DNA of 64,000 nt. Origin: Camelus ferus. Lineage: Eukaryota. The DNA lies in assembly GCF_009834535.1 (NCBI RefSeq), contig NC_045696.1, positions 8,682,001 through 8,746,000 on the forward strand, read 5' to 3'. The notes beneath the pieces were generated by a model. It saw only the letters and a list, made by a program, of their open reading frames with translations, had not been told where the DNA came from and did not search any database. A program made the position numbers and the translations under genes. Shown here piece by piece: positions 1,826-43,875 of this stretch. Within the stretch, counting starts at the first letter, position 1, and each line of letters begins with the position of its first letter.

Positions 1826-2091
1826 CCAAATTCAAGTGGGGAGAAGATGGTTTTCTGGTCTGGGGATGATGCAATCAGTGGAACCAGTTTTAAAGCCTCC
1901 AACCAATCTTTGATGATACTGCATGAGTTTATCTGCTTCTGCAGATCAGTGACAATTCCATGCTTCTGAAGTTCGATCAGCAACAGCCACAATCCGCAAA
2001 CACTCCTTCCATGGCAGGTGGTCAACCAACTTTTCTAAATCCTGGTTTTGAAATTCCAGCAATTCCTGAATTCTGTATTTCTCAAAACCCT
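1826..2091 (-). pseudogene. Exon remnant, SAM-like
   Basis: Acceptor ttttatag|; GFEKYRIQELLEFQNQDLEKLVDHLPWKECLRIVAVAD, frameshift, then ELQKHGIVTDLQKQINSCSIIKDWLEALKL. Confidence 0.6.
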
Positions 2092-2129
2092 CTATAAAAC
2101 CATTTCAAAAATGGCATAAGAAAACAGAA

Positions 2130-3070
2130 GTGAATATCTGGCAAACAGATTAGGAAAGACATTTCTAAGCATAAATTAATTTTTTAAATTACAAAAAATA
2201 GATAACAATAAAAATCAAAAACATTAGTGTCACAGATACTCTAAACAACATTGTTAGGCAGACAGAGTAGAAAAATTATTTGTATTGAATGTCACAGACA
2301 AAGTAAGTCATGATTAGAAATCATTCTATTTAAAGAACTTGTAACATTCAGTTAGAAGGACACGAAAAACCCCAACAGCAAAACTGGGCAAAGCTATGAA
2401 GACAATTCACAAAAGAAATACAAATGGAAATAACCGAGCACTCATAAATCAAAATCAAGGAAATCACATCAAAAAAATGCAAACTAAAATCATAATGACA
2501 TTCTGTACATCAAATTAGCAAAGATCAGTCATGGTTACGCCAGTATTAGCCAAGGGTGTGATCACAGTGCAGACACTCAGTCGCTGTGGAATGATCTTTC
2601 TGAAAGTTTCATCATGTTCATAGCAAAAGCCTTAAAACAAAGTTCACATGCTTCACCCAGAATCCCTGAGCGGGTATCTACCCCTTGGAAGTAACAAGAA
2701 GCTCAAACCAAGTTTTCAGCACATATATCATTGCTGAGATAGTTTTAATTGTGCAACATTTGGAGAGATGTCCAACAGCCATGAACGCGATGCCATGAAT
2801 TTTGGTGCATGCCCGTGATCGATGGAAAATTTTGTAGTCATTGCCATGAAGTTTGCAAGAAATTTTTAATCACATGTGAAAATACTTATGCTGTAGCCAA
2901 ATCAAAAACAGGATATAAAATTATAGAAGCTCTATGATTTAAATTTTGTTAAAGTGCGTGTTTCTAATTCAAATTTTATTTAAGTGTGTGTAGAAAACTA
3001 CAGTGAAAAATACATCCTTTTTTGCCCCCGGTAGTTATCTTTAAATAATTTGATTATAGGTGATGATTAT
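2130..3070 (+). mobile_element. Old L1 (L1M) ORF2-end/3'UTR fragments
   Basis: A-rich sequence with degenerate L1 motifs (aaactgggcaaag...gacaattcacaaaagaa, aaatgcaaactaaaa, atcaaattagcaaagat). Confidence 0.65.
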
Positions 3071-3333
3071 TTTCTAAATTCTGAGCATCTTCTCCCACTG
3101 GCTGTTTATAAAGCCTCTATTTATTCCGAAGACTTCTAGCCTCTTTCAGAGCATGTTCTTTCCTTTCCTTTCCTTTGTTTCTTAAACTTAATTATACCTT
3201 TCACTAAAACGCATCTGCTGTGAATGCAGGAGCGCATTCTGCGTGTTAGCGGCACCCCAGGCGTTCCAGCTTCCGGGTGGGCTGCGTGGCTCCTCCAGAA
3301 TGCTTTTTTTGTAGTGCTGGCTCAGTGACTCAC

Positions 3334-3545
3334 GAGTCCAGATTCATGCACCATCCCAGGGCGCAGACAGGAGAGAGAATCAGGCGCTGCCCCTCTGCGA
3401 GCTGGCGTTAATGTAACCCTTAACAGCTTGCCAGGGGCCTCATTGAGAAAGGTTTTCACAAATCCAATTTTATAATTGTTCCCATCCCGGGAATTGCCCC
3501 TTCCTGGCTGGTTTGTGTCCATTCAGGTGCTCCTTTTCTTGTCAT
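3334..3545 (-). pseudogene. Exon remnant
   Basis: Strong donor ctc|gtgagt at 3334/3333; frame NYKIGFVKTFLNEAPGKLLRVTLTPARRG...HESGL; polypyrimidine tract at ~3545-3565. Confidence 0.6.
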
Positions 3546-4034
3546 AAAACAAGAAAGAGATTATTGGCTCAATTCCAAACTGTACGGGCTCTTTTTGTAA
3601 TCACACGCGTACAACACAAATCACAGATATTGTTACAAATCAAAGAAGTTTCCAGTGACAGAAGAAAACTGTCGTAACAACATGATTTGCAAAGAAAAGA
3701 ACTTAAGAGTTATGTAAACCATATGAGCTTGTTTTTTTAAAAGATTTTTTAAAAAGACCGGAAGTGTGTGTAAGAAAATTTTACTGCTTGTTTCTTTGGA
3801 TTGTGAGAGTATAGGTTTTTGTTTTCATTTTTACACTTTTCCTGTATGTATTAAGGTTTCTATCTTGAGTCTTTTAGAAAAAGGCAAGCCTATTATTTGC
3901 AGATTGGAGTGGGATGGGTGGGCAGGGGTAACAACAGCAAAGACAATTACAGGGTAAAGTCGATCTTAGAAAAGAAACTCCCCTGATGAAGACGGGCTTT
4001 TGTATTTCATCCCCCGGAGGCCAAGCCCACTCAC

Positions 4035-4332
4035 GTCGTCAGTCAGCAGCTGTGCCCCTGAAGCAGTTTTATCAGCCGAGCTTTGCGAAAGTGAAAACTG
4101 AGACTCGGGTAGATCGTGCAGGGTTCCCGCGGCCACACATCTCGTTCGGGGGGAAGTGGAGACGTCACGATTATCCGCTCTCCACCCCTCTCCTGGGGGA
4201 GGTGAATGGACCACCACTGGGCTTACCTAGTCGAAGATACAGCGTGTGCTGGGGCACTTGCGGAAAATTTCCCCAGGGTTCAACTCAGAGCCAGCACTTC
4301 CGTGAGCCATAGGGACCTACATTTTTCCTGCC
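4035..4332 (-). pseudogene. Exon remnant (CpG-retaining)
   Basis: Acceptor cattttccag|, donor gac|gtgagt; reading frame ambiguous. Confidence 0.45.
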
Positions 4333-4611
4333 CTGGAAAATGAATGGAAGCTACTATGCATGCCAGAGCATTCTCAGGGTTTCTTTTCCTTTCTTTCTTT
4401 CCTTTTTTTTTTTTTTTTTTTTTTTGCCACATGCAATCGTAAAATCAGATGGGGTGTGGGTTTTCTCCTCCTTGCCTTTCCCATTGTCAGATACCCTCCC
4501 TCCACTTCTGACTGACTCTTCTGCTCTCCATAGGCTGGGATGCTGAGAGAGGGGCAGAATTGTCCGGGAGGGAGGTGGTCACATGGGCTGGTTGATATTT
4601 ACAGCATTACG

Positions 4612-4858
4612 ACATCATTCCCCAAAGCTGTGTTTCCCGGAAGGAGGCAGGATTCGCCTGGCAGCCCCATTGTGGGCAGCATCCCAGTGCCCCTCGGGCA
4701 GGACTGCTGGACGCCACATTCTGCAGACCCCCAGCATCCTTTGTTCTTCTGGAGAATGTAGCTCATTGGAACTGAAAAGAATATTAACGGGAAATCTTGT
4801 GACATGGAATGCTCAGGAATGCCGCTTCGTTTGGCTTTTGAATTTTGTACTGAGAATG
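4612..4858 (-). repeat. Copy 1 of a diverged ~240 bp local duplication (exon plus acceptor flank)
   Basis: Aligns by eye along its length to 5525-5765; acceptor ttcttttcag| at 4772. Confidence 0.9.
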
Positions 4859-5524
4859 AAATGCTTCTCTGGGGCTATGCCTTTCCCCCCTTTTGCATGT
4901 CCTACTTTATTGAGGTGGCCTAAGGTGCTGTGAGTCTCTGTATACATGAAAAGTGAAGCAGGAGCTATACTTTATTTATGTGATTCATACTAAAGTGTTG
5001 CTTTTGCTGAAATTAGCAGGTAATTGACAGCAGAGGTACTTTGAGGTTTCCATTCAGTCTGCACTTGAATTACCTAGGAAATTGCTTCATTTCCTAAGTT
5101 TGCATGAGGACAGTGTCTCAGATGAATCCCACAGCTTGATGCTGAGAAGAAAGTGCAGATATTTTAATTATTAATAGAATTGACTTGACTGCTTCATCCA
5201 AAAGAGGCGAACTGAACATGGAAAAGCTTGAGGGAGGTTAGTTCAAGGACAAGTTCTGGGAATGCTGTCAGACTTCTGCCAGTCTGAGAGTGGCCACTGA
5301 TGGGCAACTGAGTTTGTCAAGGAGGCACGTACCCCTCCTAGGATGTGTGCCTGTCTGTCCACATTTGCTCTGACATCCAGAGGGAGGGCTGGGTAACCGT
5401 TTGAAATAAAGACACCTGTGTCAGTGTGCTTCCGGGGTGCCAGACTCTGAAGACAGTTTAACTCACTAACTCTCACGACAATGCCATGCTGAGGCAGGTC
5501 CTATCTCCAGTCTCTAGATAAAGA

Positions 5525-5765
5525 ATATCACTTTCCAAAGCCTTGTTCCCGGGAAGGAGGCAGGATTCCCCTGCAGCCTCATTGCGCCCATCCCAGTGCC
5601 CCTTGGGCAGGGCTGCTGGACCCCACATTCTACAGACCCCAGCATCCTTTGTTCTTCCAGAGAGCAAAACTCATTGAAACTCAAAAGAATATTATAGGAA
5701 ATTTTGTGACATGGAGAACTTAGGAATGCCACTTCATATGCCTTTTGAGTTTAGTATTAGAAGAT
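5525..5765 (-). repeat. Copy 2 of the local duplication (exon ~5477-5679)
   Basis: Shares ggaaggaggcaggattc, catcccagtgcccc, ccacattct, cagcatcctttgttcttc and tgtgacatgga with copy 1; donor gtc|gtgaga at 5477. Confidence 0.9.
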
Positions 5766-5941
5766 GCAAAGAAAGACTGGACTTAACAAGAGTTTTGCTG
5801 CTACAAAGTAGCAGAGCCTGGATTTGAACTTGGGACAAATTATGTCTCAAAACTATGATCTTTCTAAACGGTCACACTGCTTTTTGAGTTCCCTGGCTGA
5901 GATCAAAGGATCTTAGGGTCTAGTATCGGATGAAATATTAC

Positions 5942-6163
5942 CCTGGGCTCAAGTATTTCCAGTTCTTCACTCCTGGAAAAAGTGAGAAGTTCGGTGAGGG
6001 AGCATCAGAGAGGTGCCTCCTTCACTGCCTGACTCTGCATTTGCTCCTTGGCGAGGTGCGGAGACTCTCCAGAGTGCAATACCAGAGGCAACGCGTGTGG
6101 ATGTTAGGAGTACCTTTTGACTTTGCAAAGCAGGTTTAAGAAAATACATCCATTTCTGGACAC
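5942..6163 (-). pseudogene. Exon remnant, SH3-like end (ELLTFSRSEELEILE)
   Basis: Acceptor tgtacag| after (TG)n, donor agg|gtaata; one frameshift needed. Confidence 0.5.
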
Positions 6164-6167
6164 CTGT

Positions 6168-6169
6168 AC

Positions 6170-6204
<35 letters not shown>
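6168..6204. repeat. (CA)n microsatellite
   Basis: Seen directly. Confidence 0.95.
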
Positions 6205-6207
<3 letters not shown>

Positions 6208-6369
6208 CACAGACCATTCCTGCCTCCTGTTAGGTCTTGGCTGGGATCTCTTGAGTGACCCTACAAGGGCAGATGTGGCTTGGTCACCAGTACCTTCTGA
6301 AATATTAGTGTGAAGATGAACTTGGGTATGAGGCAAGCACAGTGTGGAAAAACAGGAAAATTGCATCTG

Positions 6370-6640
6370 TGACAATGATTTATTTTTGGAGCAGCTGAGA
6401 AAGGAGTCATGAACTTCACCCCCTGTATTTAAGTGAGCGCCCTCTCAAATAGCTGTTTTGATTTCCATTACTGTTCGAGGTCTCCATACTTTGGTTTGAG
6501 TTCAGAAGCTTGAAGACTTGTGTTTAAACGATGGGTTCCTGACTCTCAGGGTAGGAAAATCCTTAACAGCTATGGAGGTTGTTTCAAATCTCCCCAGAAA
6601 GTCCACAGCAGACGGCAAAACAGGCTATGTTTGCCATCTC
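6370..6640 (-). pseudogene. Exon remnant, SH3-like
   Basis: Pieces in successive frames: FETTSIAVKDFP, SELKPKYGDL, TVMEIKTAI*EGAHLNTG; needs 2 or more frameshifts. Confidence 0.35.
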
Positions 6641-6697
6641 ATAATAAGCCCTCACTGCTTCCCGAGTCAACCAGTTTCATCTTTGACAGCTTCCTCT

Positions 6698-7270
6698 GTA
6701 TTATTATTATTTTTACATTGAAGTACAGTCAGTTTACAACATTGTGTCAATTTCTGGTGTACAGTATAATGTTTTAGTCATACATGTACATACATATATT
6801 TCTTTTCATATTCTTTTTCATTATAAGTTACTACAAGATACTGAATATAGTTCCCTGTGCTGTACAGTGGGAACTTGTTGTTTGTCTATTTTATGTATAA
6901 TAGTTAGTATCTGCAAATCTTGCAATCTCAATTTTTCTCTTCCCATCCCCTTTCTCCTTTGGTAACCATAGTTTGTTTTCTATGTCTGTGAGTCTATTTT
7001 TGTTTTGGAAATAAATTCATTTGTGTCTTTTTTTTTTTTTTTTAGATTCTATGTATTAGTGATAGCATATGGTATTTTTCTTTCTCTTTCTGGCTTACTG
7101 CACTTAGAATGATGATTTCCAGGTTCATCCATGTTGCTGCAAATGACATGTTTATTCTTTTTTATGGCTGAGTAGTATTCCATTGTATAAATATACTACA
7201 ACTTATTTATCCAATATTCTGTCGCTGAACATTTAGGTTGTTTCCATGTCTTGGCTATTGGTAAATACTG
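6698..7270 (-). mobile_element. 5'-truncated young L1 3' end with TSD
   Basis: L1 3'UTR; TSD tgacagcttcctct (6684-6697) / tgacagcttactct (7271-7284). Confidence 0.9.
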
Positions 7271-7349
7271 TGACAGCTTACTCTTTCAAAACATTTTCCT
7301 TATATTGAGTTGAAATCTGTCTCACTGCTTAACTTAGAAGAGGAGCCAG

Positions 7350-7475
7350 CTGGCTCAGAGGTGCCCATCCAGCTGCACAGGCTGTGCACTGCACCACTCC
7401 AGGGGCACGGTTCATGTGGACTTGGATGGCAGAGACCAGCAGGTGGCTGGAGTTGTGCAATACCATGGCCCTGGT
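7350..7475. mobile_element. MER91-like hAT MITE
   Basis: catccagctgcacaggctgtgcactgcaccactccagggg ... gagttgtgca...ggccctg. Confidence 0.55.
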
Positions 7476-7494
7476 TTGCCATGACAACCTTCAT

Positions 7495-7640
7495 ATTTTT
7501 TTTTAATTGAAGTACAGTTACAATGTGTCAGTTTCTGGTATATAGCACAGTGTCTCAGTCATGCGTATATATTCATTCATTCATTTTCATATCCTTTTTT
7601 TATTAAAGGTTGTTATAAGATATTGAATATAGTTCCCTGT
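7495..7640 (-). mobile_element. Short L1 3' end
   Basis: Poly(T)-aattgaagtacagttacaatgtgtc...tgaatatagttccctgtg. Confidence 0.85.
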
Positions 7641-9210: not shown

Positions 9211-9432
9211 CAAAACCTAGTGTGGACTGCAGTTGAAACTATAGAGAACTGGTATCTTCTTGGATCCAGCTGCACATACTGATGTCAAAACAGTAAAAGC
9301 ATCGAAAAGTCGTCCGGGGCTAAAAGGAAACTTGGGTTCATTATTTTTAAACAAAGCCAGTGAAGCAAGTGAGTTGCGATTCCGAGGCAGTCCAGGACAA
9401 TAGTTCTCGAGCACTGAAGTGGGCAAGAGTTG
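9211..9432 (-). pseudogene. Well-preserved exon remnant (222 nt, phase 0-0, one stop)
   Basis: ctctcatag|QLLPTSVLENYCPGLPRNRNSLASLALFKNNEPKFPFSPGRLFDAFTVLTSVCAAGSKKIPVLYSFNCSPH*VL|gttagt. Confidence 0.7.
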
Positions 9433-9457
9433 CTATGAGAGATAACAATGAATGATG

Positions 9458-11275: not shown

Positions 11276-11306
<31 letters not shown>

Positions 11307-11681: not shown

Positions 11682-11739
11682 CTATTAGAAGATGACATGG
11701 CTTTAGGTAAACAGAGAAAGGAAGGTGTAAAGCTTGGAT

Positions 11740-12917: not shown

Positions 12918-13290
12918 ATGGTTTTCGATGTTATTCCCGTTTAAGGTTGGCGGCCGACGGCGGAGGTGGGAGGCGGAGAAGCCAGAGAAGGTTGTAAGAT
13001 TAGCGGGCAAGTGGCCCCTGAACTGGCTGCAGCGTGGCTCTCCGCACCCACAAAATGCCACGTGCTCCATCTGGGTTTAGCCCCAGACCTTTTAGGGAAG
13101 GAGCTGCAGGAGCGGCTGCTTTGGGTGAATTTCAGGGTTGTGACATTGGCAGTGGCTCCCTGTGCTGGGGTCATGCGCAGACCACAGGTTCCTGCTCGCC
13201 TGTCCGTGTGTGTGTGTGTCAGCCGAGATGCAGAGGAAGGACGCTGCTTCCTCTCCTTCAGTTTGTGTCCCAAAGGGCTGCCCAGGACAC
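12918..13290 (-). pseudogene. Candidate exon remnant (CpG-rich)
   Basis: Donor cat|gtgagc at 12918/12917; overlapping minus ORFs; acceptor uncertain. Confidence 0.35.
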
Positions 13291-13494
13291 ATAACCCTCT
13301 GACTGTGCCTGGAGGAGTGGAATTTATCTAGAGGTGTGTCTGCAACTCAGAAGGTCCGTACTTGGGACTGCCCAGCGGCGCTGGCAGACGTGGCTGTTCG
13401 TGATGATGAGCCCAGCGACGCGTGGTCTGCAACACGGGAGGAAACAGGAAACGCTCGCTCTTACCAAGCGGGCTCTTCACGGGCTCTCGCTCAC

Positions 13495-13559
13495 CGAAGC
13501 GGTTTCTTTCTTTCTCCTGCTGCTGCCCCTCCTTCTTCCTTGAAGCTTTATTTTTGTGG
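13495..13559 (-). pseudogene. Small exon remnant (65 nt)
   Basis: tcttgttacag| ... tcg|gtgagc; open in two frames (e.g. HKNKASRKKEGQQQEKERNRF). Confidence 0.55.
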
Positions 13560-13644
13560 CTGTAACAAGACCAGTTTGGGTTGGATTAGCTTTCAAACAT
13601 CGTGATACCAAAACAAGGAGGCAAAATGATAATGGCAATCAGAA

Positions 13645-14380
13645 AAACGTTTTGCAGGTTGGCAGTTTCTTACAAAGCCACGTGATCAGGCAGTGGCGCT
13701 CTGGGTAAATGGTATTTACCCAAATGAGCTGAGAATTTAAGTCCACACAGCTATTCATAGACATTTTATTCAGTTACCCAAACTTGAAAACACGTCCTTC
13801 AGTGACTGAATGAATAAACAAATTGTGTTCTATCCATACAATGGGGTAGTATTCAGCAATAAAAAGAAATGAGCTGTAAGCCACAAAAAAATATGGAAGA
13901 ATCTTAAATGTGTATTACCAAGTGAAAGAAACTGATCTAAAAAGGCTAATACTGTATGATTCCAACTCTATGACATTCTGGAAAAGGCAAAACTGAAACT
14001 TAAAAAAAAAAGAAAGTAAAAGGATCAGTGGTTGCCAGGGGTTTGAGGGGAGGGAGGGATGGTGAGAAATGAAGCACAGGGGAGTTTAGGGCAGTGAATC
14101 TGATTCTGTACGTTAGTGTCACGGTGGGCGCATGACGTCGTGCATTTGTCAAAGCCCATAAAAAGTGCAAGACAAAGAATCAACTGGAAGGAAACCTATG
14201 GACTTTAGTTAGTAATGACGTATCAGAATTGTTTAATTATAACCGATGTAGCACGCCAATGCAAGATGCCAGTCGTAGGGGAAACGAGGCGGGGTAGGGT
14301 GTCTATGGGAACTATCTGTACCTTTTGCTCAATTTTTCTGTAAACCTAAAGCTGCTCTGAAAAATAAAGTTATTAATTAA
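13645..14380 (+). mobile_element. L1MB/MC-type 3' end
   Basis: ttggcagtttcttacaaag ... tgtatgattccaact ... aatttttctgtaaacctaaagctgctctgaaaaataaag. Confidence 0.8.
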
Positions 14381-15204: not shown

Positions 15205-15647
15205 TGTTGACTGAAAAAAATGCACCATCTGAAAGATGAGAATTATGTTTTATTTGGTAGACTTTCTGAGGACCTAAGGCAGGGAGACAGCCTCTCAGAA
15301 TAGCTCTGAAGGACTGCTCCAAAGAGGTAGGGGAGGAACCAGGATATGTAGGAGTTTTTGCAACAAAAAGCAGGTAGTCGGAACATCAAAAGAGTACAGT
15401 TAATTAAAGAAAAACCGGCCATATCAGGTTAATGAGTTTAGTGCTTTTCTGTGTATGGGAAGATGCTAGAGTCTGGGCTCACTGAAATCAATCCTTTGAT
15501 CTGCACCTTCACTATGTAGGGCCAGTATCCTGCTTTCCTCATCCTGAATCCCCTTAGAGTGCACAGTTGGGGCAGCTGCAGTGGCTCCTGGCTTGATGGC
15601 CACAACATCCTATTTACTGATATGAAAGATGGCATTTTTGGTCTATG
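15205..15647 (-). mobile_element. ERV1-class solo LTR (same family as 53541-54019)
   Basis: Starts tgttgactgaaa; shares gacagcctctcaga..gctctga.ggactgctcc; near-TSD tcac/ccac. Confidence 0.8.
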
Positions 15648-19022: not shown

Positions 19023-19026
19023 CTGT

Positions 19027-19115: not shown

Positions 19116-19210
19116 TTTTTTTTTTTTTTTAGAAGAGGTACTGGGGGTTGAACCCAGGACCTCCTGCATGCTAAGCATGCGCTCTACCACTTGAGCTATA
19201 CCCTCCCCCC
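19027..19210 (-). mobile_element. Full-length Vic-like SINE with internal (TAA)n
   Basis: A/B boxes; perfect TSD tcacagacctgt at 19015-19026 and 19212-19223. Confidence 0.93.
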
Positions 19211-19239: not shown

Positions 19240-19700
19240 CCCATAATCCCTTCTGAAGGGGTAGGTTCAGGCGGCCATGCTCGGCTCTATCATCTTACCA
19301 TGTTTGCCGCAGATGACTGGGGCAAGATTGGACAGCTGACTCAATGCCAGCCAATTAGCTTGCTGGCCAGTAACCAATCAGCTTCATGCTTAAAAATCTG
19401 AACACAGATACAGAGACTCTAGCCAACTGGTGATGGGTATTCCACCTCGTGGACTCAGGACTGGTTGCTACATTGAGTCCAGTGAACAGACAATGAAGGC
19501 AGAGAGGAAAAGAGACAAGTGACAAGTGAGAAATAGAAGAAGAAGGAAGGCCATGAGGCTGCTGAGAAGTGGAGAGACTTTCTTACAGTTTCCTAGTTTT
19601 ATGGGTCAGCTGTATTTTATTTTGCCTTTCTTTTATTTATTTTATTTTACTATGCCTCTCTTTCTCCATGAAATTACTTTTAGATCCTTCTAATAACCCA
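19240..19700. mobile_element. Old ERVL LTR (LTR16/LTR33-like) fragment
   Basis: tgactcaatgccagccaattagc...accaatcag and purine-rich middle; degenerate. Confidence 0.35.
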
Positions 19701-20604: not shown

Positions 20605-21854
20605 CTGGGGCCTTGTGAAAAATTAAAATGTGAGGCTTCTTATTCAAAAATTATTAAGCATTTCAAGTCAGTGAATGCAGAGCCTTCAACCGAGCACAAG
20701 GCACTTGGCCGGGCATACAGGGTCCAGCGGGCCTCACAGCAGGCTCCCTTGCTTTCTGGCTCCCTGTTCTGATTTAAAGGGATTCGGATTCTCCTGGGAT
20801 GAAATCCTGGCTTTATGTCTTACTGGCTGTGTGACCCCGAACACGTTTCTTCACCTTTTCTGAGTTTCAGCTGTTTGTCTACAAAATGGGTAGAATAGTA
20901 ATTACAGGGGTGTTGCCAGAGCTGAATGAAGTGCAAGGAAGCCCACCCCAGGGACCACATGTGCTTACTTCACATGTGGCCCCCCCACGGCATGGGGATC
21001 CCTCCCCGGTTTCCCTACCTGCTAAGTAACCCGCAGAGCCATGCAGCGCATGCCTCTAATGCACAGCTGGACGTGCATCCCTGGCAACAGGGCTGTGTGT
21101 GGTAGTGGCCCAACTCGGAGCGTGTTGGGAGAATGATCCATTAAAGAGGGGAGGAATCAACAGCGCAATTAGGAATCATTTCATCCTATAATGACGCCAG
21201 CTGCTGAAAAGGCCACTGCCCCGGAGCGTTGCCGCTAATGGCGTGTGCTGTCTGCTGCTACAATCAGCCTCTCTGACTTCCCAGGATGCGACGTCCTCTT
21301 AGGACACCAAGGATCTCGAAAATGCAGCAGATAGACACAAGGCACAAATATCCTGTCTTAATCAACAATGCAGCATAATTTATTAAGAACTTAAAAACAT
21401 TCTTCCCCAATCAGCTAAATGCCATCAACAATGTACGTTCACTCCTGTGGCTGTCTTCGTTTGATTTTTTTTCTCTTCTTCTTCTCTTTTCTCATAGAAA
21501 GAATTGAAAGCACCAGGACAGCTAATTTAGTTACGTCAAGGAAGCCAGAAAAACTGCGTGAAAAGTCTCTCAGGAAATTTTACATTAGGAGTGACTAGCC
21601 CAAAGTATCCAGGAGTCCGTGTACCTGCCACACTTGACCTTGTTACTCATTGTCCTTCGTTATCATTCACTGAGCGATTCATTCTAGAAACATGCGTTCA
21701 GTGTCTGCTGTATGTTGGACATTGTATGTGGGGAGCTGTGAAGTTCATTAAAGACAAAGATTATTGACATTTCTCCAACAGAAAGGCCGATTGCAAGGTC
21801 AACCGTGAGCATCTCTTTTAAAAGTCCCTTGACACTTAAGAAGTTATTTTGTTG

Positions 21855-22021
21855 GGGGAGGTGGCTATAGCTCAGTGGTAGTGTGTGCCTGGCATGCACG
21901 AAGTCTGGGCTTAATCTCCACTACCTCTGTTCAAACAAACAAACAAACAAACCCTAATTACTGCCCCCTCTGCCAAAAAAAAAAAAAAAAAAAAAAAGAA
22001 AAGAAAAAAGCTTTAAAAAAA
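21855..22021 (+). mobile_element. Vic-like SINE
   Basis: gctatagctcagtgg head, (CAAA)n linker, poly(A); TSD ttattttgttg at 21844-21854 and 22022-22032. Confidence 0.9.
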
Positions 22022-24089: not shown

Positions 24090-26350
24090 CAGAAAAAAAG
24101 TAAAAATCACTTGAAACCAGGTAACGCCTCTTTCGACACTTTCATTCGCTTCCATCCACACTGACACAGATTCACAAATTCACACATCCTAGTTCTGTGT
24201 GTACATTCTTACTAAAGAAGAAAGGTTTACTATTCAAATGCTTTTGTCCCTGTGCTTTGAACTTCACAATAAACTGTGAACATCTTCTCCTGAGGTAAAT
24301 GTAGCAGCCATCTCTTGTCTCTTCTTAAGGATGAATCACCATTTACTTCCCCAGTGTCCTCCTGTTGGAAATGAAGCCATTTTCCTTCCTTAGGCATCAT
24401 ACACGTCTCTGTCTCATGATCATCTTGGCATTGAACGTCAGTGATTTCTTTAAGATAAATTCCCGGAAATAGGACTGCAGGGGCAAATGTCACGCACGTT
24501 CTTTAAAGCTGTTAATACCTATTGCGTAGTTGCCCAGAGAAAATGGTACCATTTGCATTCACATAAACAAGTGGAGTACCTATTTCCACACTTTTATGGT
24601 CAGCATTAATAATGGCGCAATATGAAACGTGCCAAGCACTGTGTTAAGGGTTTTAAATACATTTTTCCCCGCTTGGTTCTCATTCCATTCTCTACAGTAG
24701 TACAGCTGTCTTTTTTCTTTTTTTTTAAACAGATGTATAAGATAAAGCTTAGAGAGCTTGAGTTAATTTGACCAGAATCCCATGACTTTGGCTTTGAGTC
24801 CAAAGCCTGACACTCTCGGTCACTGCTGATGCATCAACATTTATTGACCATCTACTAAGTGCAAGGCGTTGTGCTGGGCACCGTGGGGGCACCTGATAGA
24901 GGTGGCTCAAGAATGATCTCTAATCCAGTGAGGGAAGAAAAGAGAGACATTGGTGAGATATAATAAAATACAATTGCACCAAGTTATGTAATCATGACAG
25001 CAGGAAAATCACGTGGGATGCAAAGGAAAGGTGGTTACAAGTAGCTGAGAGGAATAGGAGACGCTTTGAAGGGAAAGGAATTATTTGAGCTGGCTTTTAA
25101 AGACATGAAGGGTTTATCCAGGTAGTGAGAGGTAGTGAGAATTTCAGGAGCAGGACTATCTTCAAGTCATGGCAATGGGGGGACCCAAGGTGGCCAAGAG
25201 GAAGAGCTTGATGTGGTGAAGGGGTGATGGGAAATGGATGTAAAGATGTAGTTGGAAGGCAAATCATGGAGGTCTTTGCTAGATTAAGGAGATTGGATTT
25301 GATTCTATAAACAATGGGGGCTTTGTTGGATGTTTTTAACAGGGAGATATGATTCACATGCCAAAGATAATTTTGAGAGTCATTTGAAACATCTTAAAGC
25401 AGAAGGAACTCGAGATGGGAAGTTAGGTAAGTGTCGAGAAGAGGATACATGATGTTTAGGTAGAATCAAGACTTGACATTTGACTGGATATAGAGGCTGA
25501 GAGGGGAAGAATGAAAGGTTTCTCCAGGGTTTGGCCCTGGGTCAGATGGCGGCCAGGATGCCGTGATCAAAAGCAGGATGGACATTAGGAACATAAAACT
25601 GGTTAGGGAAGAGAATGGAATCAAGTTTGGAACCAACGAAGCCTAAAGTCTAGTGTATGGATACTAGAGCTCTGCCCTTGACCTTGAGAGAGAGTTTGAC
25701 TTTGGAAATAAATGTAAGCATTATCCATAAGGAGACAATAGCTGAAGTCAAGAACTTGTATATTACTTGTGAGGGACGAAGAAGAGAGAGGAGGGCAGAT
25801 AAGGTCCTTGTACACTTTGAAAATGGAACCAAGAAGATAAATGAGCCAAAGAAAGTGAGGAGCAATCGTCAGAGGGAAAGAAGGGCAAGACAGATTGTTC
25901 TGAGCTTGGGAGGCCAAAGAAAAAGAAACGTTCAAGAGCAGAGGTTGATGAAAAGTGGGAAGACATGGCTTTGCAACTTGGGTGAGAAGACATCCCAGAG
26001 GGTTGCAGGGGCTGAAACTGGGCCTTGAGACTTGCAAGAATCACGTTACACATGGTCCTTTAGAGAGTCCCCTCCACAGGATGCTAGGGAAGGAGCCAAC
26101 ACAGGAAGGGATTTGAACTTTGCTGGAAATTGTGGAAGCAGTAATAGAAGATTGTAAACACACCCCTCCATCTAAAATACATATATAATGTACTTTATAT
26201 ATTTGTTTACAATTATAACTGTGTTTATAAGCTGAAGACAAGGAGCCAGTCGAAGCATCAGGCAGAGGAAGGAGATACAGGGCAAGAGAGAGTTAACTGC
26301 TGGGAAAAGGCCCAAAGGAGATGGGAGAGAGAGAACCAAGGGCCCAGGGG
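24090..26350. mobile_element. Cluster of old L1, MIR and L2 fragments
   Basis: L1 reverse (taaattcccggaaataggactgcaggg), MIR (gtgccaagcactgtgttaaggg), L2 reverse (caacatttattgaccatctactaagtgcaagg and purine-rich body). Confidence 0.65.
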
Positions 26351-27919: not shown

Positions 27920-28019
27920 NNNNNNNNNNNNNNNNNNNNNNNNNNNNNNNNNNNNNNNNNNNNNNNNNNNNNNNNNNNNNNNNNNNNNNNNNNNNNNNNN
28001 NNNNNNNNNNNNNNNNNNN
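27920..28019. other. Assembly gap (100 N) next to (TTTC)n
   Basis: Seen directly. Confidence 1.
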
Positions 28020-28917: not shown

Positions 28918-28930
28918 AGGACACTTTCTT

Positions 28931-29614
28931 AAGCCATTTGCAGTTTCAGGTGTGTGCAACTCCTTGGGAAGAAACGGAGGCCAGAACTGAGTGTTTGCTG
29001 GGAGTCCGTGTGCCAGGAAGAGGATCCTTCACTACTTGGAGAGTTAGTCTATCGGGAGAATTGTAGCTATTCCATGGGGAGAAGAGTAAGTAAGCTAAAC
29101 TGTGTTTGAGTTTGGGGAAGAGAATTGAAAGTGGCAAGTATTTGTATTTTTCTGTTGCGAGTCAGTTAAGAGAGAATAGAGTTTAAATTTCAGAGAGGAT
29201 TGAGCTCAGACCTGGGGAAAGCATATCTAGAAAGTGTGAGACATTTTGGACTTCCTCCAAGGAGGTGTTGGGCACAGAACTGCAGAGATGAGTCATGGAA
29301 TTTGAAGGTGAGGGTGTGCTAAGGTCATGGAGTGGGGTCCCAACCCCAGGGGTGCTTTGTTTTCTGGGACCACTCTTCAACTGTTCCACCGCTAGAATAT
29401 GTTGAAGGATGTGTCTTGAGCTTCAACAAGTTGCAACACTCATTTCCTTTAACATTCACCACAGCTGGATCTTGCGTTTTGTCTTTCTTAGAAGTATTTG
29501 ATTTTTTCACAACATTTTCCATTTTTATCTGTGATGACCTATCTCTTCCTGTCACAGCCGGAAACATGATACCAGGATGAGGCAACTCTCCCGTCTCTTT
29601 CCCTTGGGTAAGGT
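28931..29614 (-). pseudogene. Large exon remnant (~680 nt)
   Basis: Acceptor tatgtttcag|; three chained ORFs (29325-29585, frameshift, then 29183-29389 and 28946-29137 in the same frame across two stops). Confidence 0.65.
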
Positions 29615-36000: not shown

Positions 36001-37007
36001 ATTTATGTTCTTCATAGAATATACAGTTGCTTTTCTGGGCTTCCCTTGGGGGAAAAATAGTCCCCATCAATTACTTTTAATTTTTTTTCCTGAAAAACAA
36101 AATAAAACAAAACAAAAAACTGAACAAATACTTAAAGGCAAAGATTTCTGAACTTGAACAAAATGTTCAGTTATTTCAAGTCTCTGAGTAACCTTGGTTG
36201 GGCCATGCCCCCTTTCTGGGCCTTTCTAGCCCATCTTTGGGGGAAATGGATTAAGTAAGGAATTCCATGGACCTGTCAGTCATCTGCTTTGTGCCTTGCC
36301 CTGTGCTGGGTGCCCATCCAAGGAACAGCCAAGGCCGCCCCATTACAGTGGGGGTGGGAGGAGGAGAGTGTGGGGACAGGAATCTCGTAACCCAGGACAC
36401 ATTAGCAGTGTTGCATCAGATGGCCCACGCGAGGTGAGGAAAATAATGCCAGGCAGCGGAAGAGAGCGTGGTGGGGACAGCCAGGAGGCAACACCAGACA
36501 TATCACAGAAGGCTTCTCAGAGGAGGTGATGGTTGGGCAGATATTTGCATACAGTGAAGGAACCTGGCAAGATGCATGCCATAGGTGGCCCTATAGTGTC
36601 CCCTTAATAGGATGCTAGGGAAGGCAGTCCAAGGCGGGGAGGAATGTGGATTTTGTTGGAAAATGTGGATGCAACAGGAAGACGCCTCTACTGGGTCCTT
36701 GTCCTCAGCTTACAAACACCTTCCACAGCCTCCATGTTCTACGTTGTGCACATGTGTGTGCGTGTGTGTGTGCGTGTGCGTGTGTGTACTGGATTCTTTT
36801 ATGAGATGACCATTCAGGGGTAGCCATAGAAAGAGACTGAGGAGAGCCTCAGGAAAACAAAACAGAACGAACAAAACAAAGTTTATCACGTCCCCAGGGA
36901 CAGAAGGCTCAGCGCATCAAGGAAGGCCACATGGGGATGACTCTAGGGGGCTCAGGCTGCAGAAGACAGGAGTGGGGGATGGGCAGAGCTTAAGGAACAG
37001 CCTTTAC

Positions 37008-37572
37008 TGGGGTTTCCTCTGTTACAAAGATGTTTTTTTCGGGTGAATAGTGAGAATCCATGTGCCCTGCCACACGGCCGTCTGACCCCGCTGGCGTTTT
37101 GTGTGCGCGGGGACCTGGCCCGCGACGTGCGGCAGGAACGGGTACTTTCCCAGGGGTTCGCTGCACTTGCTGCAGCAGCCTTCACTCTAGGGTGTGTTCA
37201 GGATCATTCCCTGTCCGGGCGATAACGCTGGGGCCCCCATACAGACTGCAGAAGGGCTGCCATCAGAGGGGGGTTCTCTCAGAGTCCATTGCTTTATGCC
37301 TTTGTAAAAGTCTACACGGAGCGCCCGGAGATGAAGCGTTCAGGACAGATGACAAAATGGACTATTTCTCCATGTGTAAAGGCATCTCTTCGGTGTGGGG
37401 GCGCCCCCGGCATCGTCTAGAATGCCCGTTTTGATGTGCATTTGCTAACAGGCTGTAAGTTACAGTGCTGACCACGGGCACAGAACAGCAAAACAGCCAG
37501 ACTCATCGAGGCAAAGTGACCGAATCACTCGTCATATTTTTCTTGTTCTGGCTCTATTTTATACTGAATTCT
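37008..37572 (-). pseudogene. Large CpG-retaining exon remnant
   Basis: actctgtactctag|RIQYKIEPEQEKYDE* ... DAFTHGEIVHFVICPERFISG ... HMDSHYSPEKNIFVTEETP|gtaaag. Confidence 0.5.
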
Positions 37573-38174
37573 CTAGAGTACAGAGTGTAATAAAAATACC
37601 AAACTATTGATAGGAAGGGTGGGAGAAGGTGAGGTTAATTCACACTAACTGATGTAATAATTCTACCTAATAAAACTGAAACAGGAGGGAAAAATATTCA
37701 CACTGAGACCAATAAGGTTACTCATGGGAATCCAAGCAAAGTTGCACCATGATTCATCACGACCAGGCTGGCGAAATTGTCTTTTTTCCTGACCTCAGTG
37801 ACCTTGAGTTGGGTCTTTCTTCTAAATCGAATTTATTTTATTTTTTTCATCCAGAGAATGTAGTTTCAGTGAAGTTTGAAAGTGATCTAAGGAGCAAGAA
37901 TAAACCTGGCAAAGGTGACTCGGAGGTGGCACTGATTCTTCATTTGATACGGGCGTAAGAACTGAGATCATATCATGATGCTGGTCTTGTCGAGGGCACC
38001 TCCATGCTTTCCCATTTCTCCTCCATCTGCATCTAACCCTCATCACTGCCCCCATCCCATTCTCCCAAATTAGCTGCTCTGACAACAGGAGTGTGTGAGT
38101 TTCCATGTGTTTTCTATACTTATATAATTCAATTATAAAATTATATAACTCCGTATACAGGAGGGTGCGTCAAT

Positions 38175-38370
38175 CATGGCACCAGCCACATTTGGGGCCA
38201 GGTAATTCTTTGTTGGCTGTCTGGTCCATTGTGAGATGTTGAACAGCATCCCTGGCCTCTATCCCCTGGATGCCAGTAGCATTCTCCCTCCATATTGGAC
38301 AACCAAGAAACATCTCCAGGCATTGCCAAATGTCCCACAGTGAGCAGAGTTACTCGGTTGGAAACCACTG
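38175..38370. mobile_element. MER20 hAT element
   Basis: catttggggccaggtaattctttgttgg...agcatccctggcctcta...cattgccaaatgtcc...ggttggaaaccactg. Confidence 0.85.
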
Positions 38371-38910
38371 ACATGAAGGCTAGTTTTACAACTTACTTCT
38401 TCACAAAAGGAATTATTTTGTACACTTTCCTACATCTTGCTGTTCCCAATCAAAAATCGACACATTTCCCAGAAGTCAATGGTATAATACTGTTTAATTA
38501 TTTCTAATGGTTGCTTAATATTCTGTGGGTACATACAGCATCGTTCCGTAGGCTCATTCCACCATCACTGGATATGAATGTGGTTTCCAGTTCTTGGCCT
38601 CCTGGAACAAACGCTTCAGTGAGCACTAACATGTGCTTTTACAGAGTCCCAGAAATGGAATTGTGGCACATATATTTTGAATTGTAATAGATACTGCGAG
38701 ATTGCTTGATGATGGCATTTGGAGAAAACTTTAAAAACTATGGACTGCATAAGACTGATTTGATTCTAAACCTTTAATGGATGAGTCTAGATAGAAGTGA
38801 TTATTTCAGTGATTATTTTTAGCATGAAAAGAAATATGGGTAAATTGGAAAATTGCTTTTTTATAGTCCTAAAATTTACAACTCTTTGTTCAGAAGGAAG
38901 TTCAGATTAC

Positions 38911-39060
38911 CAGTTATCGGGTCTTTCAAACATCTGTTTGTCAAAGTTTGTGTTGAAGACATCAGTTACAAGAAACACATCATGAAAGAAAACTGTGCGT
39001 GCCTAGAGGGTTACTTTTTCCAGTCAGAATAGCCCGTGATAAGTATTTCAAGGCCATCAG
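38911..39060 (-). pseudogene. Exon remnant
   Basis: GLEILITGYSDWKK / ARTVFFHDVFLVTDVFNTNFDKQMFERPDN|gtaatc. Confidence 0.5.
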
Positions 39061-39402
39061 TGAAAATGGAATAAGGGGACTAGATTTAAGTTGTATTAAG
39101 TGATAAAATAATAAGATACACCTAGTGAGTTTCTTCAGCATTAATGGTTACCTGAAACTCTGCAACCAACCTCATTAATCAAGTAGGCAGGGTCTGAGTA
39201 ATATGTCATTATTAAATGATTGATAAAAGTGTTTCTCTGTTTGATTCTTCGGACATTTTAATATGCTATTTTATTTCCAAGTCAACAGGTCAGGATAGCT
39301 TTTACGCAGCAGTATTTCATTTGTTCTACTTTATTTTTTTAAATTTTTAAAAAAAAAATTTCCCCCATTAAAGCATTATCTGGTGAAAGAAAAAAGCTAA
39401 AC

Positions 39403-39580
39403 CTGGCTTTTGAATTCCAAGATCTCACTGCTCAATGGCAAGGAAATTAGAAGTTGTTTTCTGGCACGCTTGACAGACTCGGCAAACTGGCATCAGGAGA
39501 TGTTCTTTCTGATGGGCGTCGTGCTGTGAGCAGGCGCTGTTCTCTGTAAGTCTGTACCGCTGGGTCCTTCCCTGTATTTG
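39403..39580 (-). pseudogene. Candidate exon remnant
   Basis: ccctccctag| ... cag|gtttag; near-open frames. Confidence 0.4.
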
Positions 39581-39712
39581 CTAGGGAGGGATAGGACTAG
39601 ATTAAAATTAAGCCAAGTGTTTATTTCTTTTTTATTAGGTTAATTTAAACAAATAGACAAGTAATGCATGTATGTTGCAAACTTTAAGTTTTGTGTTGAG
39701 CTTCTTGGTTAC

Positions 39713-39999
39713 AGTGTATCACAAGTGATGCACACTGAGCCCCCGGGAGGAGGCGTGTGAGCTCTGGGGACCCGAGTTGGTTGAACTTTGGGCTTTTGCT
39801 TGGAGCCTCTTGATATTACAGAAAGGTCTTGTTCCATCAGTTTTGCTTTTGTGATGTCCTTGGACATCTGGGATTCCTCCTTTCTTTTAGACTTAGATCA
39901 TTTCTTTTAATAAGTAAGATTCTCTCCATGTCACAACGAATTTTGTTGTGTGCCAACCTGCGATGGAGTGATTGCATTTGCTGTATTTTTGTGTGATCT
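39713..39999 (-). pseudogene. Exon remnant with one frameshift
   Basis: gctag|DHTKIQQMQSLHRRLAHNKIRCDMERILLIK / KSKRKEESQMSKDITKAKLMEQDLSVISRG...|gtaacc. Confidence 0.5.
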
Positions 40000-40199
40000 C
40001 TAGCACAATGTTTATAAATAGTTCTGACTTAAAATGACAAGTTATGTCACAAAGTTATGAAACAATTAGGAAAAAGACATTTGAGAAACTATCACCCAAT
40101 TATTTAGAAGTGGTAACTTTTATCTCTTTGCTACCAATTTCATATGCTTTCTTTTCATAGTACACATACAATTTGAAATGCTGACTTTAAGTGATTTAC

Positions 40200-41800
40200 C
40201 TTTTAATAGGTAATACATGCAAATTTTTTTAAAAAAACAACAAAATTGACTAAATGAAATGTATTAATCTCTTTCTCCCTTCTTTACCATGATGACTAAT
40301 TCCCTTTCAAGGAGACATCTACTATTTCTGGTTTTCTAATTTACTGGAATTTTAGATCATTTACATTGTTTATAACCCGTTTCTATATTAAACAAAACTT
40401 TTATGAACATTCTTATGCATATATTGTTTCTCATATGTGTGAGTATTTGGATTGGAAGAAAAGGCTGCCACTCAAAATCTACAGCAAAAACTGACTATCG
40501 CTTGCTAAACAACGGAAAAGTCTGCTTGTGGGATACAGTTCTATCAAAACAAAGCAAATCTAATATGATGTAGGGTTTGGGAAGCATTGAGTCTAGGGCT
40601 TGATGGACTTTTAGAAGCAAGAGTGTTTAAGGATTGATTGAGCTGTGCAACCTTGGCAATTGGCATGTGCCTTTAAGAAATGCAGTTGCTAAATCGATTG
40701 TCACTGGTCAGTTGTGATGGCTTTGAACACAGTGGTACTGGTGACTTGTTTATGTCTTGGGACAGCGGCCAAAGAACAGTCATCATTTTCCTTTCTTGAC
40801 TTTGGAATATACAAACTTTAAATTGTCATCTTCACGAGAAATTCATGGCAATGGAATTGCTGGGTCAAACAGTAAGTGTGTTCTGTATTTTGATTGATTT
40901 CCACAGAGGTTTGCCAATTCACACTGCAGCCGGCAAGGAACGACAGTGTTGATTGTCCCACAGCATGGTATGTCATCAAGTTGTTGACCTTTGTTAACCT
41001 GATAGGTGAACTGAAGTATCTTGGAAGTTTTAACTTGTCTGTTTCTTAGTATAAGTGAAGTTGAGAAACTTTGTACGTGATTAAAAGCCATTTTATTTTA
41101 TTTTCTATACATTTTTACTAACATCTGTCCATTTTCAATAGAGTTTTTTAAAACACTGATTTTAAAGGACTCTATATATTAATTAGCTCTTTACATTTTC
41201 TCTATATGTTGTCTTACAATTGTATTTAGGATATTTATTTGGGGAGAGGGGCATATAAAAGCTGTTATATAGTTGAATTTTTTAGTGTCTTCTGAGTTTT
41301 ATACTATAGTTGGAAAGACGTTCATTTTTGAGATTATTATATTTTTCTGTGCTTTGTCTTAGTGCTTTTATGGTATAATTTTCTTTTAATTCTTATTTTT
41401 TATTGAAGTGTAGTCGATTAACAATGTTAATTTTAGGTGTACAGCAAAGTGATACATACATACACACACATATATATACACACACACACACATATACGCA
41501 TACATACGTACGTATATATATATTTCAGATTCTTTTCCATTACAACTCATTACAAGAAATTGAATACAGTCCCCTGTGCTGTACAGCAGGCCTGTGTTTA
41601 TATTGGTATAAGTATGAGGGAGGATTACACTTTTTCAGGGAGCTACTTCGTTGTCCCAGCACTGTTTGTTGGATAACACATGATTTCTCCATTAATTTGC
41701 ATTGTCATCTTTGCCCCACACTAAATTTGCATAAATATGTTAATTTGTTTCCGACTTCCCCTCTGATCCATTGACTGGCATGCTGACTTTTCCATTCAGC
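40200..41800 (-). mobile_element. Old L1 fragments with a nested young L1 3' end (41390-41595)
   Basis: tggaattgctgggtcaaa...; tattgaagtgtagtcgattaacaatg...gtccctgtgctgtacag. Confidence 0.65.
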
Positions 41801-41829
41801 ATGCTACCACATGCATTTTTCTGTTTGCT

Positions 41830-42113
41830 AATCGGGCTTCTTTCTTATCGTGGTGGTGTTTACATTAAGTGAACATTCTGTAATGCACTCAACAACTCTC
41901 TTTCTTGTTGCCCACCATTTAACACTGGGGAAATACATTCACCTCGATTCATTCCAGAAGTAACCAGTTGTGCAAACTATTTGCCATTATCTGGACACTC
42001 GGTATATCTGCTGGTGGAGATTTCAAGCATTCAGCATTCTACCTTCTACATCACAGGTGGACATTTTCTCAGCTCAATAAGAGTTAGCCATTTAACGAGT
42101 TAGCAAGGAAAGG
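41830..42113 (-). pseudogene. Candidate exon remnant, SAM-like start
   Basis: tttttgtcag|...LVKWLTLIELRKCPPVM*KVEC*MLE...FAQLVTSGMNRGECISPVLNG. Confidence 0.4.
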
Positions 42114-42400
42114 CTGACAAAAATTCAACAACGAGGTATCAGTCGTGAAATGGAAAAGAAAAATCTGTTGGATCTTTAAAATTTTTGTTTGAATTAGGAC
42201 ATTTAAAACTTAAAGAGAAATATTATACTCTATTCCAAGTGCTGGTTAAAAACAACTGGCTAATATGACTTCATTTTCTTAAGAATATACTTGCACTAAA
42301 AGCAATTCTTTTTTTGTGGATGATTCAGAAATACTGGCTGAGCCAGCATGCTGCCAAATTTGTAAGTGTGAGGGTATGTGTAGAAGTATGTGAGATGTGA

Positions 42401-42401
<1 letters not shown>

Positions 42402-42433
<32 letters not shown>
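42402..42433. repeat. (TG)n microsatellite
   Basis: Seen directly. Confidence 0.95.
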
Positions 42434-42437
<4 letters not shown>

Positions 42438-42487
42438 CGTGTGTGTGTTGTGTTCCCTAGAGGGTAACACCAACATGTGTGTGCTTC

Positions 42488-43117
42488 TGTTGGACGGCAC
42501 CCTGCGGACCTCACCCAGCTTCAAGACTGAGGAAAGAGCCCAGAGTCAGCGACAGAGACATCAATGGTTTAATGGATGGGGGAGCTTATATGTCGGAAGC
42601 AAGGTCCTAGTTCAACACCCCACTGTGTGCAGTGGGTGGTGGGCAGGGCATGGCTGCAGGCTTCGGTCCAGAGGGCAGGGGGAGGCTCCCACCTACTGCA
42701 GGGAGAAGTGACACCAGGCTAGCTCCTTGGTTACCAGGAAAACCAGCAGAAGGGCACGCCCCCCCCCCCCCTTTGATTAGAACAATCCCTAGCTGGGGCC
42801 TAGGGCTAGTTTGTAGGAAGGCCAGCCAGGGGAGTAAGTGTGGTGAAGCAGGCACTGTCCAGCAGAGGATGAACAGAGAGAAAGAGAACAGCTGTTTTGA
42901 GTGGCCTGACCACACAGCTCCCGAGGGCTGGTTTAATTTTTATTTGTCGTACGAGAGATTCTACCGCTTTATATTAAGAGAGAAGAGTGTTATTAGCTAT
43001 TCCTTTCCATGGCCACTGAAATAAGGTTCCAGCTCAGAAACAAATTCCTTTTCCCTGGACCTAAGTTTGTTTCAGTGGTTAGGGGTGGGCACACCTGGAA
43101 GCAGGCAGCGTAAGCCA
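42488..43117 (-). mobile_element. Solo LTR (ERV1-like)
   Basis: TG...CA ends with 4-bp TSD cttc; ATTAAA on the minus strand near the left end; right boundary less certain. Confidence 0.6.
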
Positions 43118-43348
43118 CTTCACCTCTCTCTGCATATACTTGATAGGAAAGCTTCCCTATAGGCATTTAGTAGTTTCTCAGATTTATTTTAAGACACAGT
43201 GGTCAACACTTTTGTCAAGGAATATTTGCTACTCAAGTGAAATTAAGTTTCCTTTTATGCCCCCAAATCCTCACTGCCTGTAACACATGAATCTTCTTCC
43301 TCTGGGATAGATTGGAGTTAGTGGCCGCAGGTATTTGAAATTACTCAC

Positions 43349-43530
43349 CCAAGGACTATGGAAAGTCATGGGTCAGTAAGATAAGAAAAGAAGTGATGGA
43401 TCAGGAAGATAAACATCAGCAGTCTAATGAGGTCTCATGCTGCGTGAAGTAATGGTTATGAATCGCAGCATGGACTCAGTAGACTCCAGGAAGTACAATT
43501 GCATATGACTGTTTTAAATTACTTCTCATC
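43349..43530 (-). pseudogene. Exon remnant with consensus splice sites (182 nt)
   Basis: ttttttttctttaaattctag|MRSNLKQSYAIVLPGVY*VHAAIHNHYF...tgg|gtgagt. Confidence 0.65.
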
Positions 43531-43642
43531 CTAGAATTTAAAGAAAAAAAAAGAGGGGAAAATAAAAAATAATGACTTTTTCTGCTTCAAGTCAGTATCT
43601 TCATTCTGGCTAAATTCAGAAAAAAATGCATTGCCTCTTTAC

Positions 43643-43875
43643 TCCGGTGAGTATGCCGTCTCCTCCTTCCAAAGGGCAGATAGATGGAGGAGAGCCGTGA
43701 GGAGCGTGGAGGTCCAGCAGGCACTTGGAGACTCCACCTGGGAGCGTTTTAGTCATCACGGCCAGTCTCTTTATGATACAAGGTCACCATTTCTAGCATA
43801 GTCAATGATATCTCAGACTGGAGCATCTCCTTAAATTTCATGAGTTGTGATGTCAGTAAAACTCATTCCAGGGAA
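43643..43875 (-). pseudogene. Exon remnant, clearest SAM-like segment
   Basis: cattttag|SLE*VLLTSQLMKFKEMLQSEISLTMLEMVTLYH/KRL...gga|gtaaag. Confidence 0.55.

What the first reader, a model, noticed from the sequence alone, without database searches (positions are those of the whole stretch)
1826..43875. Repeated SAM-like modules dispersed along the fossil protein
Seen in manual translations: SLE*VLLTSQLMKFKEMLQSEISLTMLEMVTL (43643-43875), LVKWLTLIELRK (~42090), VQNVSHFLDML (~29240), GFEKYRIQELLEFQNQDLEKL followed by IIKDWLEALKL (1826-2091), and FIENVLYLLG/LDHL (~400). Established: SAM domains start with a V-x-x-W/F-L-x-x-I/L-x-L helix and later carry an L-x-x-L-T-x-x-D-L-x-x-L motif. Inference: a multi-SAM scaffold whose architecture I cannot match to CASKIN, SASH, SHANK, ANKS1 or liprins.
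Basis: inference. Interest (0 to 1): 0.7.

Follow-up and report, generated by a model that had tools for sequence, protein, structure and literature searches.

The report
Unproven fossil SAM-like exons, camel DNA
Short protein-like stretches scattered through non-coding mammalian DNA were read as remains of a dead gene with many SAM domains, but no test confirmed a SAM domain or a living relative, so chance is slightly likelier than a real fossil gene, although three of the sites share a motif that deserves one alignment check.

Summary
All five quoted peptides are on the minus strand where stated, in gene-poor mammalian DNA, probably the camel RUNX1-upstream desert (inferred from unchecked notes). 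On a home-built SAM profile four of five sites score like random DNA. A spliced multi-SAM model fits the minus strand no better than the plus strand; 8 of 55 shuffles match it. Two weak signals remain. 1826-2091 is the top minus-strand stretch for both tandem-SAM score and codon periodicity (2 of 164 shuffles, but 2 of 3 natural control strands tie). Sites 42090, 1989 and a new one, 19353, share W-L-x-L-[IS]-[EQ]-L-x-[KN] (3 of 300 shuffles). Verdict: unproven. Chance 0.47; real fossil multi-SAM gene 0.35; other coding relic 0.15. The searches are weak for old, divergent SAMs. A vertebrate genome alignment would settle it.

The parts
43643..43875 (-).
   Evidence: AG and GT present but weak, 65th and 76th percentile; SAM score matched by 42% of random stretches; codon periodicity by 22%; no Pfam, PDB or homologue hit; single-sequence model is one long helix (78)
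41943..42113 (-).
   Evidence: Acceptor 86th, donor 99th percentile; member of the best motif triple; SAM score matched by 43%, periodicity by 96% of random stretches; no SAM in Pfam
29180..29340 (-).
   Evidence: Does not match the core motif; SAM score matched by 54% (79), periodicity by 34% (87); no Pfam hit
19299..19467 (-).
   Evidence: Donor 99th percentile; member of best motif triple; SAM score matched by 10%, periodicity by 63%; no Pfam hit; 5' boundary uncertain (19561, 19558 or 19467)
1826..2091 (-).
   Evidence: Top minus-strand hit for tandem-SAM model (23.6 bits, 0 of 30 shuffles) and for codon periodicity (8.8 bits; 169 of 200 shuffled windows reach it); combined 2 of 164 shuffles but tied by plus and reversed strands; AG at 2092-2093, below 85th percentile; no GT at 3' end; no Pfam, PDB or homologue hit
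290..460 (-).
   Evidence: SAM score matched by 75% (79), periodicity by 43% (87); no Pfam hit
1579..1652 (+). tRNA-Ala-like SINE head next to segment 4, followed by a purine-rich tract (1656-1799) that is the best false-positive control
   Evidence: ARAGORN; tract scores 24.7 and 30.7 bits on the same models

Best explanation
The window is non-coding mammalian DNA, probably part of the gene desert upstream of RUNX1, and the SAM-like peptides are chance matches. Mechanism of the illusion: the SAM helix-1 pattern is short and leucine-rich, six-frame translation of 64 kb gives about 128,000 positions, and free choice of frame, stops and frameshifts lets a reader chain such words into modules. 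Shown: the peptides, their strand, the negative profile and homologue searches, the control-strand scores. Inferred: the genomic location, and that nothing real lies under the weak signals.
For: Core motif 18 times on minus, 17 on plus; strict motifs at 0 of 5 sites. No SAM in Pfam for 15 frames over the five sites or for 7 further readings including two frameshift read-throughs. No PDB relative at E<=10 that is a SAM. No homologue: 0 hits at E<=0.001 among 1.84 billion representatives; 0 of 10, 0 of 42 and 0 of 9 candidates at E<=10. Four of five sites score like random stretches on a SAM profile and on codon periodicity. Spliced multi-SAM model: minus 59.8, plus 65.7 bits, 8 of 55 shuffles at or above minus; its running score gains nothing at 43.7, 42.1 or 29.2 kb. 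Best site tied by plus strand (30.7) and reversed strand (31.2) versus 30.3. Stop-free frame lengths match shuffles. No Pfam family in 15 minus-strand frames over 44001-64000; no hit below E 0.08 in 24 further frames.
Against: Three dispersed minus-strand sites share a motif beyond the filter used: 59 versus 25, 34, 27 on control strands, 3 of 300 shuffles; same triple, 3 of 300, under a neutral W-L-x4-L filter; strict pair 7 of 300. Two of those three sites end in 99th-percentile donors. The SAM profile is bacterial and loses power fast with decay; word-based searches covered only proteins up to 2000 residues.
Confidence: 0.47

Rival explanations
1. A real unitary pseudogene: a multi-exon minus-strand gene, dead for tens of millions of years, that encoded several divergent SAM-like modules. 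Its ancestral product would most likely have worked as a scaffold, with SAMs packing head-to-tail within and between molecules as in CASKIN, ANKS1 or liprins. Best-supported exons: 41943-42113, 19299-19467, 1826-2091; 43643-43875 possible; the other two probably noise. All mechanistic steps are inferred.
For: Shared motif triple; segment 1826-2091 top in SAM-tandem and periodicity scans, 85 codons without a stop across one frameshift; strong donors at 41943 and 19299; phase-1 donor at 19299 fits phase-1 acceptor at 2091 (one in three by chance); Atlas 'recognition' 2924 for the 43.8-kb frame, a value 9 in 100 shuffles reach. At the position of the SAM tyrosine two of the three sites carry codons one base away from Tyr (read). 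A by-eye likeness to ACK1/TNK-type SAMs is recalled, not tested.
Against: No profile, structure or homologue match; gene-level model not above controls; triple not significant at clique sizes 2 and 4 (30 and 32 of 300) or under the strict filter (41 of 300); the filters were chosen after seeing the data; W-L words are spaced 24, 28 and about 42 residues apart, too close for canonical 65-residue SAMs; no donor at the end of 1826-2091; model of the 43.8-kb frame is one helix; Atlas neighbours are HTH proteins at 0.84 or less.
Confidence: 0.35
2. Some segments are real coding relics but not parts of one SAM gene: an isolated exon fragment at 1826-2091, pieces of an old transposon or retrocopy, or a different helical repeat protein.
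For: Only 1826-2091 shows coding periodicity; it lies between a SINE with a purine tract and an old L1-like stretch (L1 label recalled by eye); helical, non-SAM leads.
Against: No DNA-level similarity among the segments (16-31% of random pairs score as well); no Pfam transposon family in the frames scanned.
Confidence: 0.15

Closest known systems
Multi-SAM proteins CASKIN1/2, ANKS1A/B, liprins and Kazrin E, SASH1, SARM1 (PMC10252437, passages read)
   Same: If real, several SAM-like modules in one chain; an end-of-SAM, short linker, start-of-SAM layout at 1826-2091 would resemble their tandem SAMs.
   Different: No sequence match to any solved SAM. No ankyrin, SH3, PTB or TIR family in the frames scanned.
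SAM domain, Pfam SAM_1 (PF00536) and SAM_2 (PF07647)
   Same: Helix-1-like word W-L-x-x-I/L-x-L at 42090, 1989, 1905, 19425; a relaxed late motif at 2062.
   Different: No profile hit; bridged pieces reach at most 3.2 bits on a SAM profile; spacing between W-L words too short for whole domains.
Unitary pseudogenes found by PhyloCSF (PMC6886504, passages and part of one supplement read)
   Same: Same class of object if real: a dead single-copy gene at its ancestral locus.
   Different: Those were shown by multispecies alignment and an intact orthologue; neither is available here. No entry between human RUNX1 and SETD4 among the 32 of 111 'chr21' places seen.
Runx1 upstream gene desert (PMC8828719, passages read)
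   Same: Gene-poor, enhancer-bearing DNA between Runx1 and Setd4, 750 kb in mouse; the window falls there by proportional distance (inference).
   Different: The passages read describe enhancers and CTCF sites and mention no fossil gene.

Membership tests
SAM domain (PF00536 / PF07647) | Profile score above the curated cut-off (23 and 20.5 bits) | tested here: not met
   No SAM family for 15 frames, 7 readings, 24 frames; positive control 4 of 4 bacterial SAMs at 55-64 bits; bridged pieces at most 3.2 bits on own profile
   Strict start motif 0 of 5 sites, strict late motif 0 of 5; core start motif 2 of 5, relaxed late motif 1 of 5
SAM domain (PF00536 / PF07647) | Five-helix bundle fold | tested here: inconclusive
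   One single-sequence model of a 58-residue frame that holds at most two thirds of a domain: one helix, residues 6-37; no orthologue to fold
Known multi-SAM families (CASKIN, ANKS1, liprin, SASH1, SARM1) | Sequence similarity to their solved SAM domains | tested here: not met
   phmmer against PDB at E<=10, 4 queries: no SAM chain
Known multi-SAM families (CASKIN, ANKS1, liprin, SASH1, SARM1) | Partner domains (ankyrin, SH3, PTB, TIR, coiled coil) in the same gene | tested here: inconclusive
   None in the minus-strand frames scanned; roughly half of the minus strand and the whole plus strand were not scanned against Pfam
Unitary pseudogene | Intact orthologue at the syntenic locus of another species | not testable with these tools
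   No vertebrate genomes held; protein searches found nothing
Unitary pseudogene | Exon-intron structure with splice signals and compatible phases | tested here: inconclusive
   Strong donors at 2 of 7 segments, no donor at the best segment; spliced model not above controls
Unitary pseudogene | Residual coding signature (codon periodicity) | tested here: inconclusive
   1 of 7 segments above background (0 of 1500 random stretches), not significant window-wide (169 of 200)

The most novel reading that the evidence does not exclude
The RUNX1 upstream 'gene desert' contains the fossil of an undescribed vertebrate gene for a scaffold with four or more divergent SAM-like modules, more than any multi-SAM protein in the review read, lost early in placental mammals and possibly intact in other vertebrates; some desert enhancers might sit on its old exons.
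Probability: 0.3. Interest if true: 0.62.

Novelty: not a real feature. Interest (0 to 1): 0.28.

Why it matters
If the best explanation holds, it is a caution: short leucine-rich domain motifs arise freely in translated non-coding DNA, here as often on the wrong strand. If the rival holds, a much-studied regulatory desert next to a leukaemia gene would be the grave of an unknown signalling scaffold with more SAM domains than known multi-SAM proteins, and the living orthologue could be studied in birds, reptiles or fish. The novelty label follows the slightly likelier reading; the case is open and cheap to close.

Tried and rejected
No whole genome is held for this window. Homologue searches, all empty. 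ESM Atlas: no usable hit for 1958-2089; HTH-type clusters at 0.84 or less for 43752-43862, lead only. Metagenome scan: 2 confirmed loci of 594 pattern matches, both bacterial-type DNA matching only a short word in the out-of-frame tail, no DNA similarity to the window; rejected. Sequencing runs: no RNA holder listed; no reads were laid, so transcription and splicing are untested. pSymB held no SAM to seed a profile; a degenerate SAM DNA pattern had 0 matches in the window. hmmsearch of 858 six-frame pieces with the bacterial SAM profile: best E 11. One search repeated the scan with an entropy setting that had no effect. In one search the 29.2-kb piece was cut in the wrong frame and is void; low shuffle counts there (2, 2 and 17 of 2000) are circular because the pieces were picked by motif. 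Amino-acid-composition scan tracked GC content and was dropped. Alignments A1 and A2 of the segments gave only 35 and 17 consensus columns and were not searched. No fold search, because the model was a single helix. CH-domain-like and further SAM-like words seen by eye near 55.7, 51.3, 37.8, 23.7 and 5.15 kb had no Pfam support. Literature: searches found 0 papers; 42, 47, 59, 62, 80, 81 listed none whose title or abstract start describes a fossil SAM gene near RUNX1. In PMC6886504 supplementary files 1 and 8 were not searched and 79 of 111 'chr21' places in file 3 were not seen; they may bear on whether a human pseudogene is on record. Earlier-findings look-ups near the window, by relatives and by words gave nothing on this locus.
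Full report
Context. The window is CpG-depleted mammalian-type DNA (CpG observed/expected 0.22-0.40) with three tRNA-Ala-like SINE heads (camelid Vic-1 label recalled), dispersed repeats and no excess of long open frames (longest 185 codons, like 5 shuffles). Unchecked earlier notes on the same piece call it camel and place KCNE1/SMIM34/KCNE2 827.5 kb beyond the window and BRWD1 2.86 Mb before it. By proportion, with human coordinates from recall, the window falls between RUNX1 and SETD4. In mouse that interval is a 750-kb gene desert with enhancers (PMC8828719, passages). The location is an inference.

Observation. The five peptides are on the minus strand at the stated places. Two need a frameshift to be read as quoted and one contains a stop.

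Family and homologue tests. Pfam gave no SAM family for 15 frames over the five sites, for 7 further readings including two frameshift read-throughs with X, for 15 frames over 44001-64000 or for 24 frames over eight other stretches. PDB phmmer gave no SAM at E<=10 in 4 queries. phmmer over 1.84 billion representatives gave 0 hits at E<=0.001 for one frame of 1810-2100. Three word-based searches scored 0 of 10, 0 of 42 and 0 of 9 candidates, limited to proteins of at most 2000 residues. These are weak negatives for an old pseudogene whose nearest intact relative may be 40-45% identical (inference).

Own SAM profile. I built a profile from 112 bacterial SAM sequences; 4 of 4 tested were Pfam SAM_1. 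In a frameshift-aware scan the best minus-strand score was 15.8 bits, within the shuffled range 15.2-20.7 (n=30). Per segment, the share of random same-size stretches scoring as well was 0.42 (43.7 kb), 0.43 (42.1 kb), 0.63 (30.2 kb), 0.54 (29.2 kb), 0.10 (19.4 kb), 0.015 (1826-2091) and 0.75 (0.4 kb). Power control on 56 held-out SAMs: 88% detected at 0.2, 39% at 0.3, 2% at 0.4 substitutions per site; a divergent vertebrate SAM would fare worse. A spliced multi-SAM gene model scored minus 59.8, plus 65.7, reversed 46.8, complement 47.6 bits, and 8 of 55 shuffles reached the minus score. So the gene-level claim is not supported.

What survives. First, 1826-2091. With a tandem-SAM model it is the top minus-strand hit (23.6 bits, above 30 of 30 shuffles), but a purine-rich plus-strand tract scores 24.7. 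The combined score, 30.3, is reached by 2 of 164 shuffles and by 2 of 3 natural control strands. Second, a shared motif. Among 30 minus-strand sites passing a loose SAM-start filter, the best triple is 42090, 19353 and 1989, scoring 59 against 25, 34 and 27 on control strands, 3 of 300 shuffles; pairs and quadruples are not significant (30 and 32 of 300). The filters were chosen after seeing the data. Third, donors at 41943 and 19299 are in the 99th percentile, and the 19299 donor is in phase with the 2091 acceptor. Against: weak splice sites at 43.7 kb, no donor at the end of 1826-2091, only 1 of 21 segment pairs similar and no DNA-level similarity, W-L words too closely spaced for whole SAMs, and a single-helix model for the 43.8-kb frame.

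Explanation. Most likely (0.47) the peptides are chance readings of non-coding DNA. Nearly as likely (0.35) a decayed multi-exon gene lies here, best seen at 42.1, 19.4 and 2.0 kb, whose product would have been a SAM-polymer scaffold; that mechanism rests on what is known of multi-SAM proteins (PMC10252437, passages) and on nothing shown here. A coding relic of another kind takes 0.15. These probabilities are judgement, not computation. The 29.2-kb and 0.4-kb peptides should be dropped under any reading.

Comparison. It cannot be filed as a SAM domain, nor in CASKIN, ANKS1, liprin, SASH1 or SARM1: the profile and similarity tests were run and not met. Whether it works like one is moot, since any gene here is dead. 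As a unitary pseudogene it lacks the defining orthologue. The review names three SAMs as the most in one protein, so a real gene with four or more would be a new variant. Eight literature searches (listings and abstract starts) showed no report of such a fossil; passages of PMC3974841 on Runx synteny name none (figure not visible); in PMC6886504 I read passages and 32 of 111 chr21 places of one supplement.

Verdict. Observation partly confirmed, interpretation undecided and mostly unsupported, interest 0.28. One look at a vertebrate genome alignment of the RUNX1-SETD4 interval would decide it.

Noticed in passing
   Followed up: yes
window 4614-4849 and 5527-5756: Local direct duplication, 236 nt at 81% identity, about 0.9 kb apart, with no third copy in the window.
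   Followed up: no
window 15205-15586 and 53541-53914; also 54950-55700: Two 76%-identical 380-nt copies, LTR-like by eye, and a further LTR-like block (labels recalled).
   Followed up: no
window 26061-26140 and 36592-36673: 80-nt dispersed repeat pair at 78% identity.
   Followed up: no
window 23576, plus strand: A near-perfect SAM helix-1 word on the strand opposite to the supposed gene; shows how easily the motif arises.
   Followed up: partly
window 37001-38000, 13001-14000, 4001-5000, 21001-22000: CpG-richer patches (36, 31, 28 and 26 CpG per kb); three RUNX-type sites in 51001-52000 and six GATA sites in 46001-47000. Possible enhancers if this is the RUNX1 desert; no control run.
   Followed up: no
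window 27920-28019: Assembly gap of 100 N beside a (TTTC)n repeat.
   Followed up: no
   Followed up: no
window 1579-1652, 19132-19205, 61359-61432: tRNA-Ala(AGC)-like SINE heads; two lie within 250 nt of the 3' ends of the best candidate exons.
   Followed up: partly
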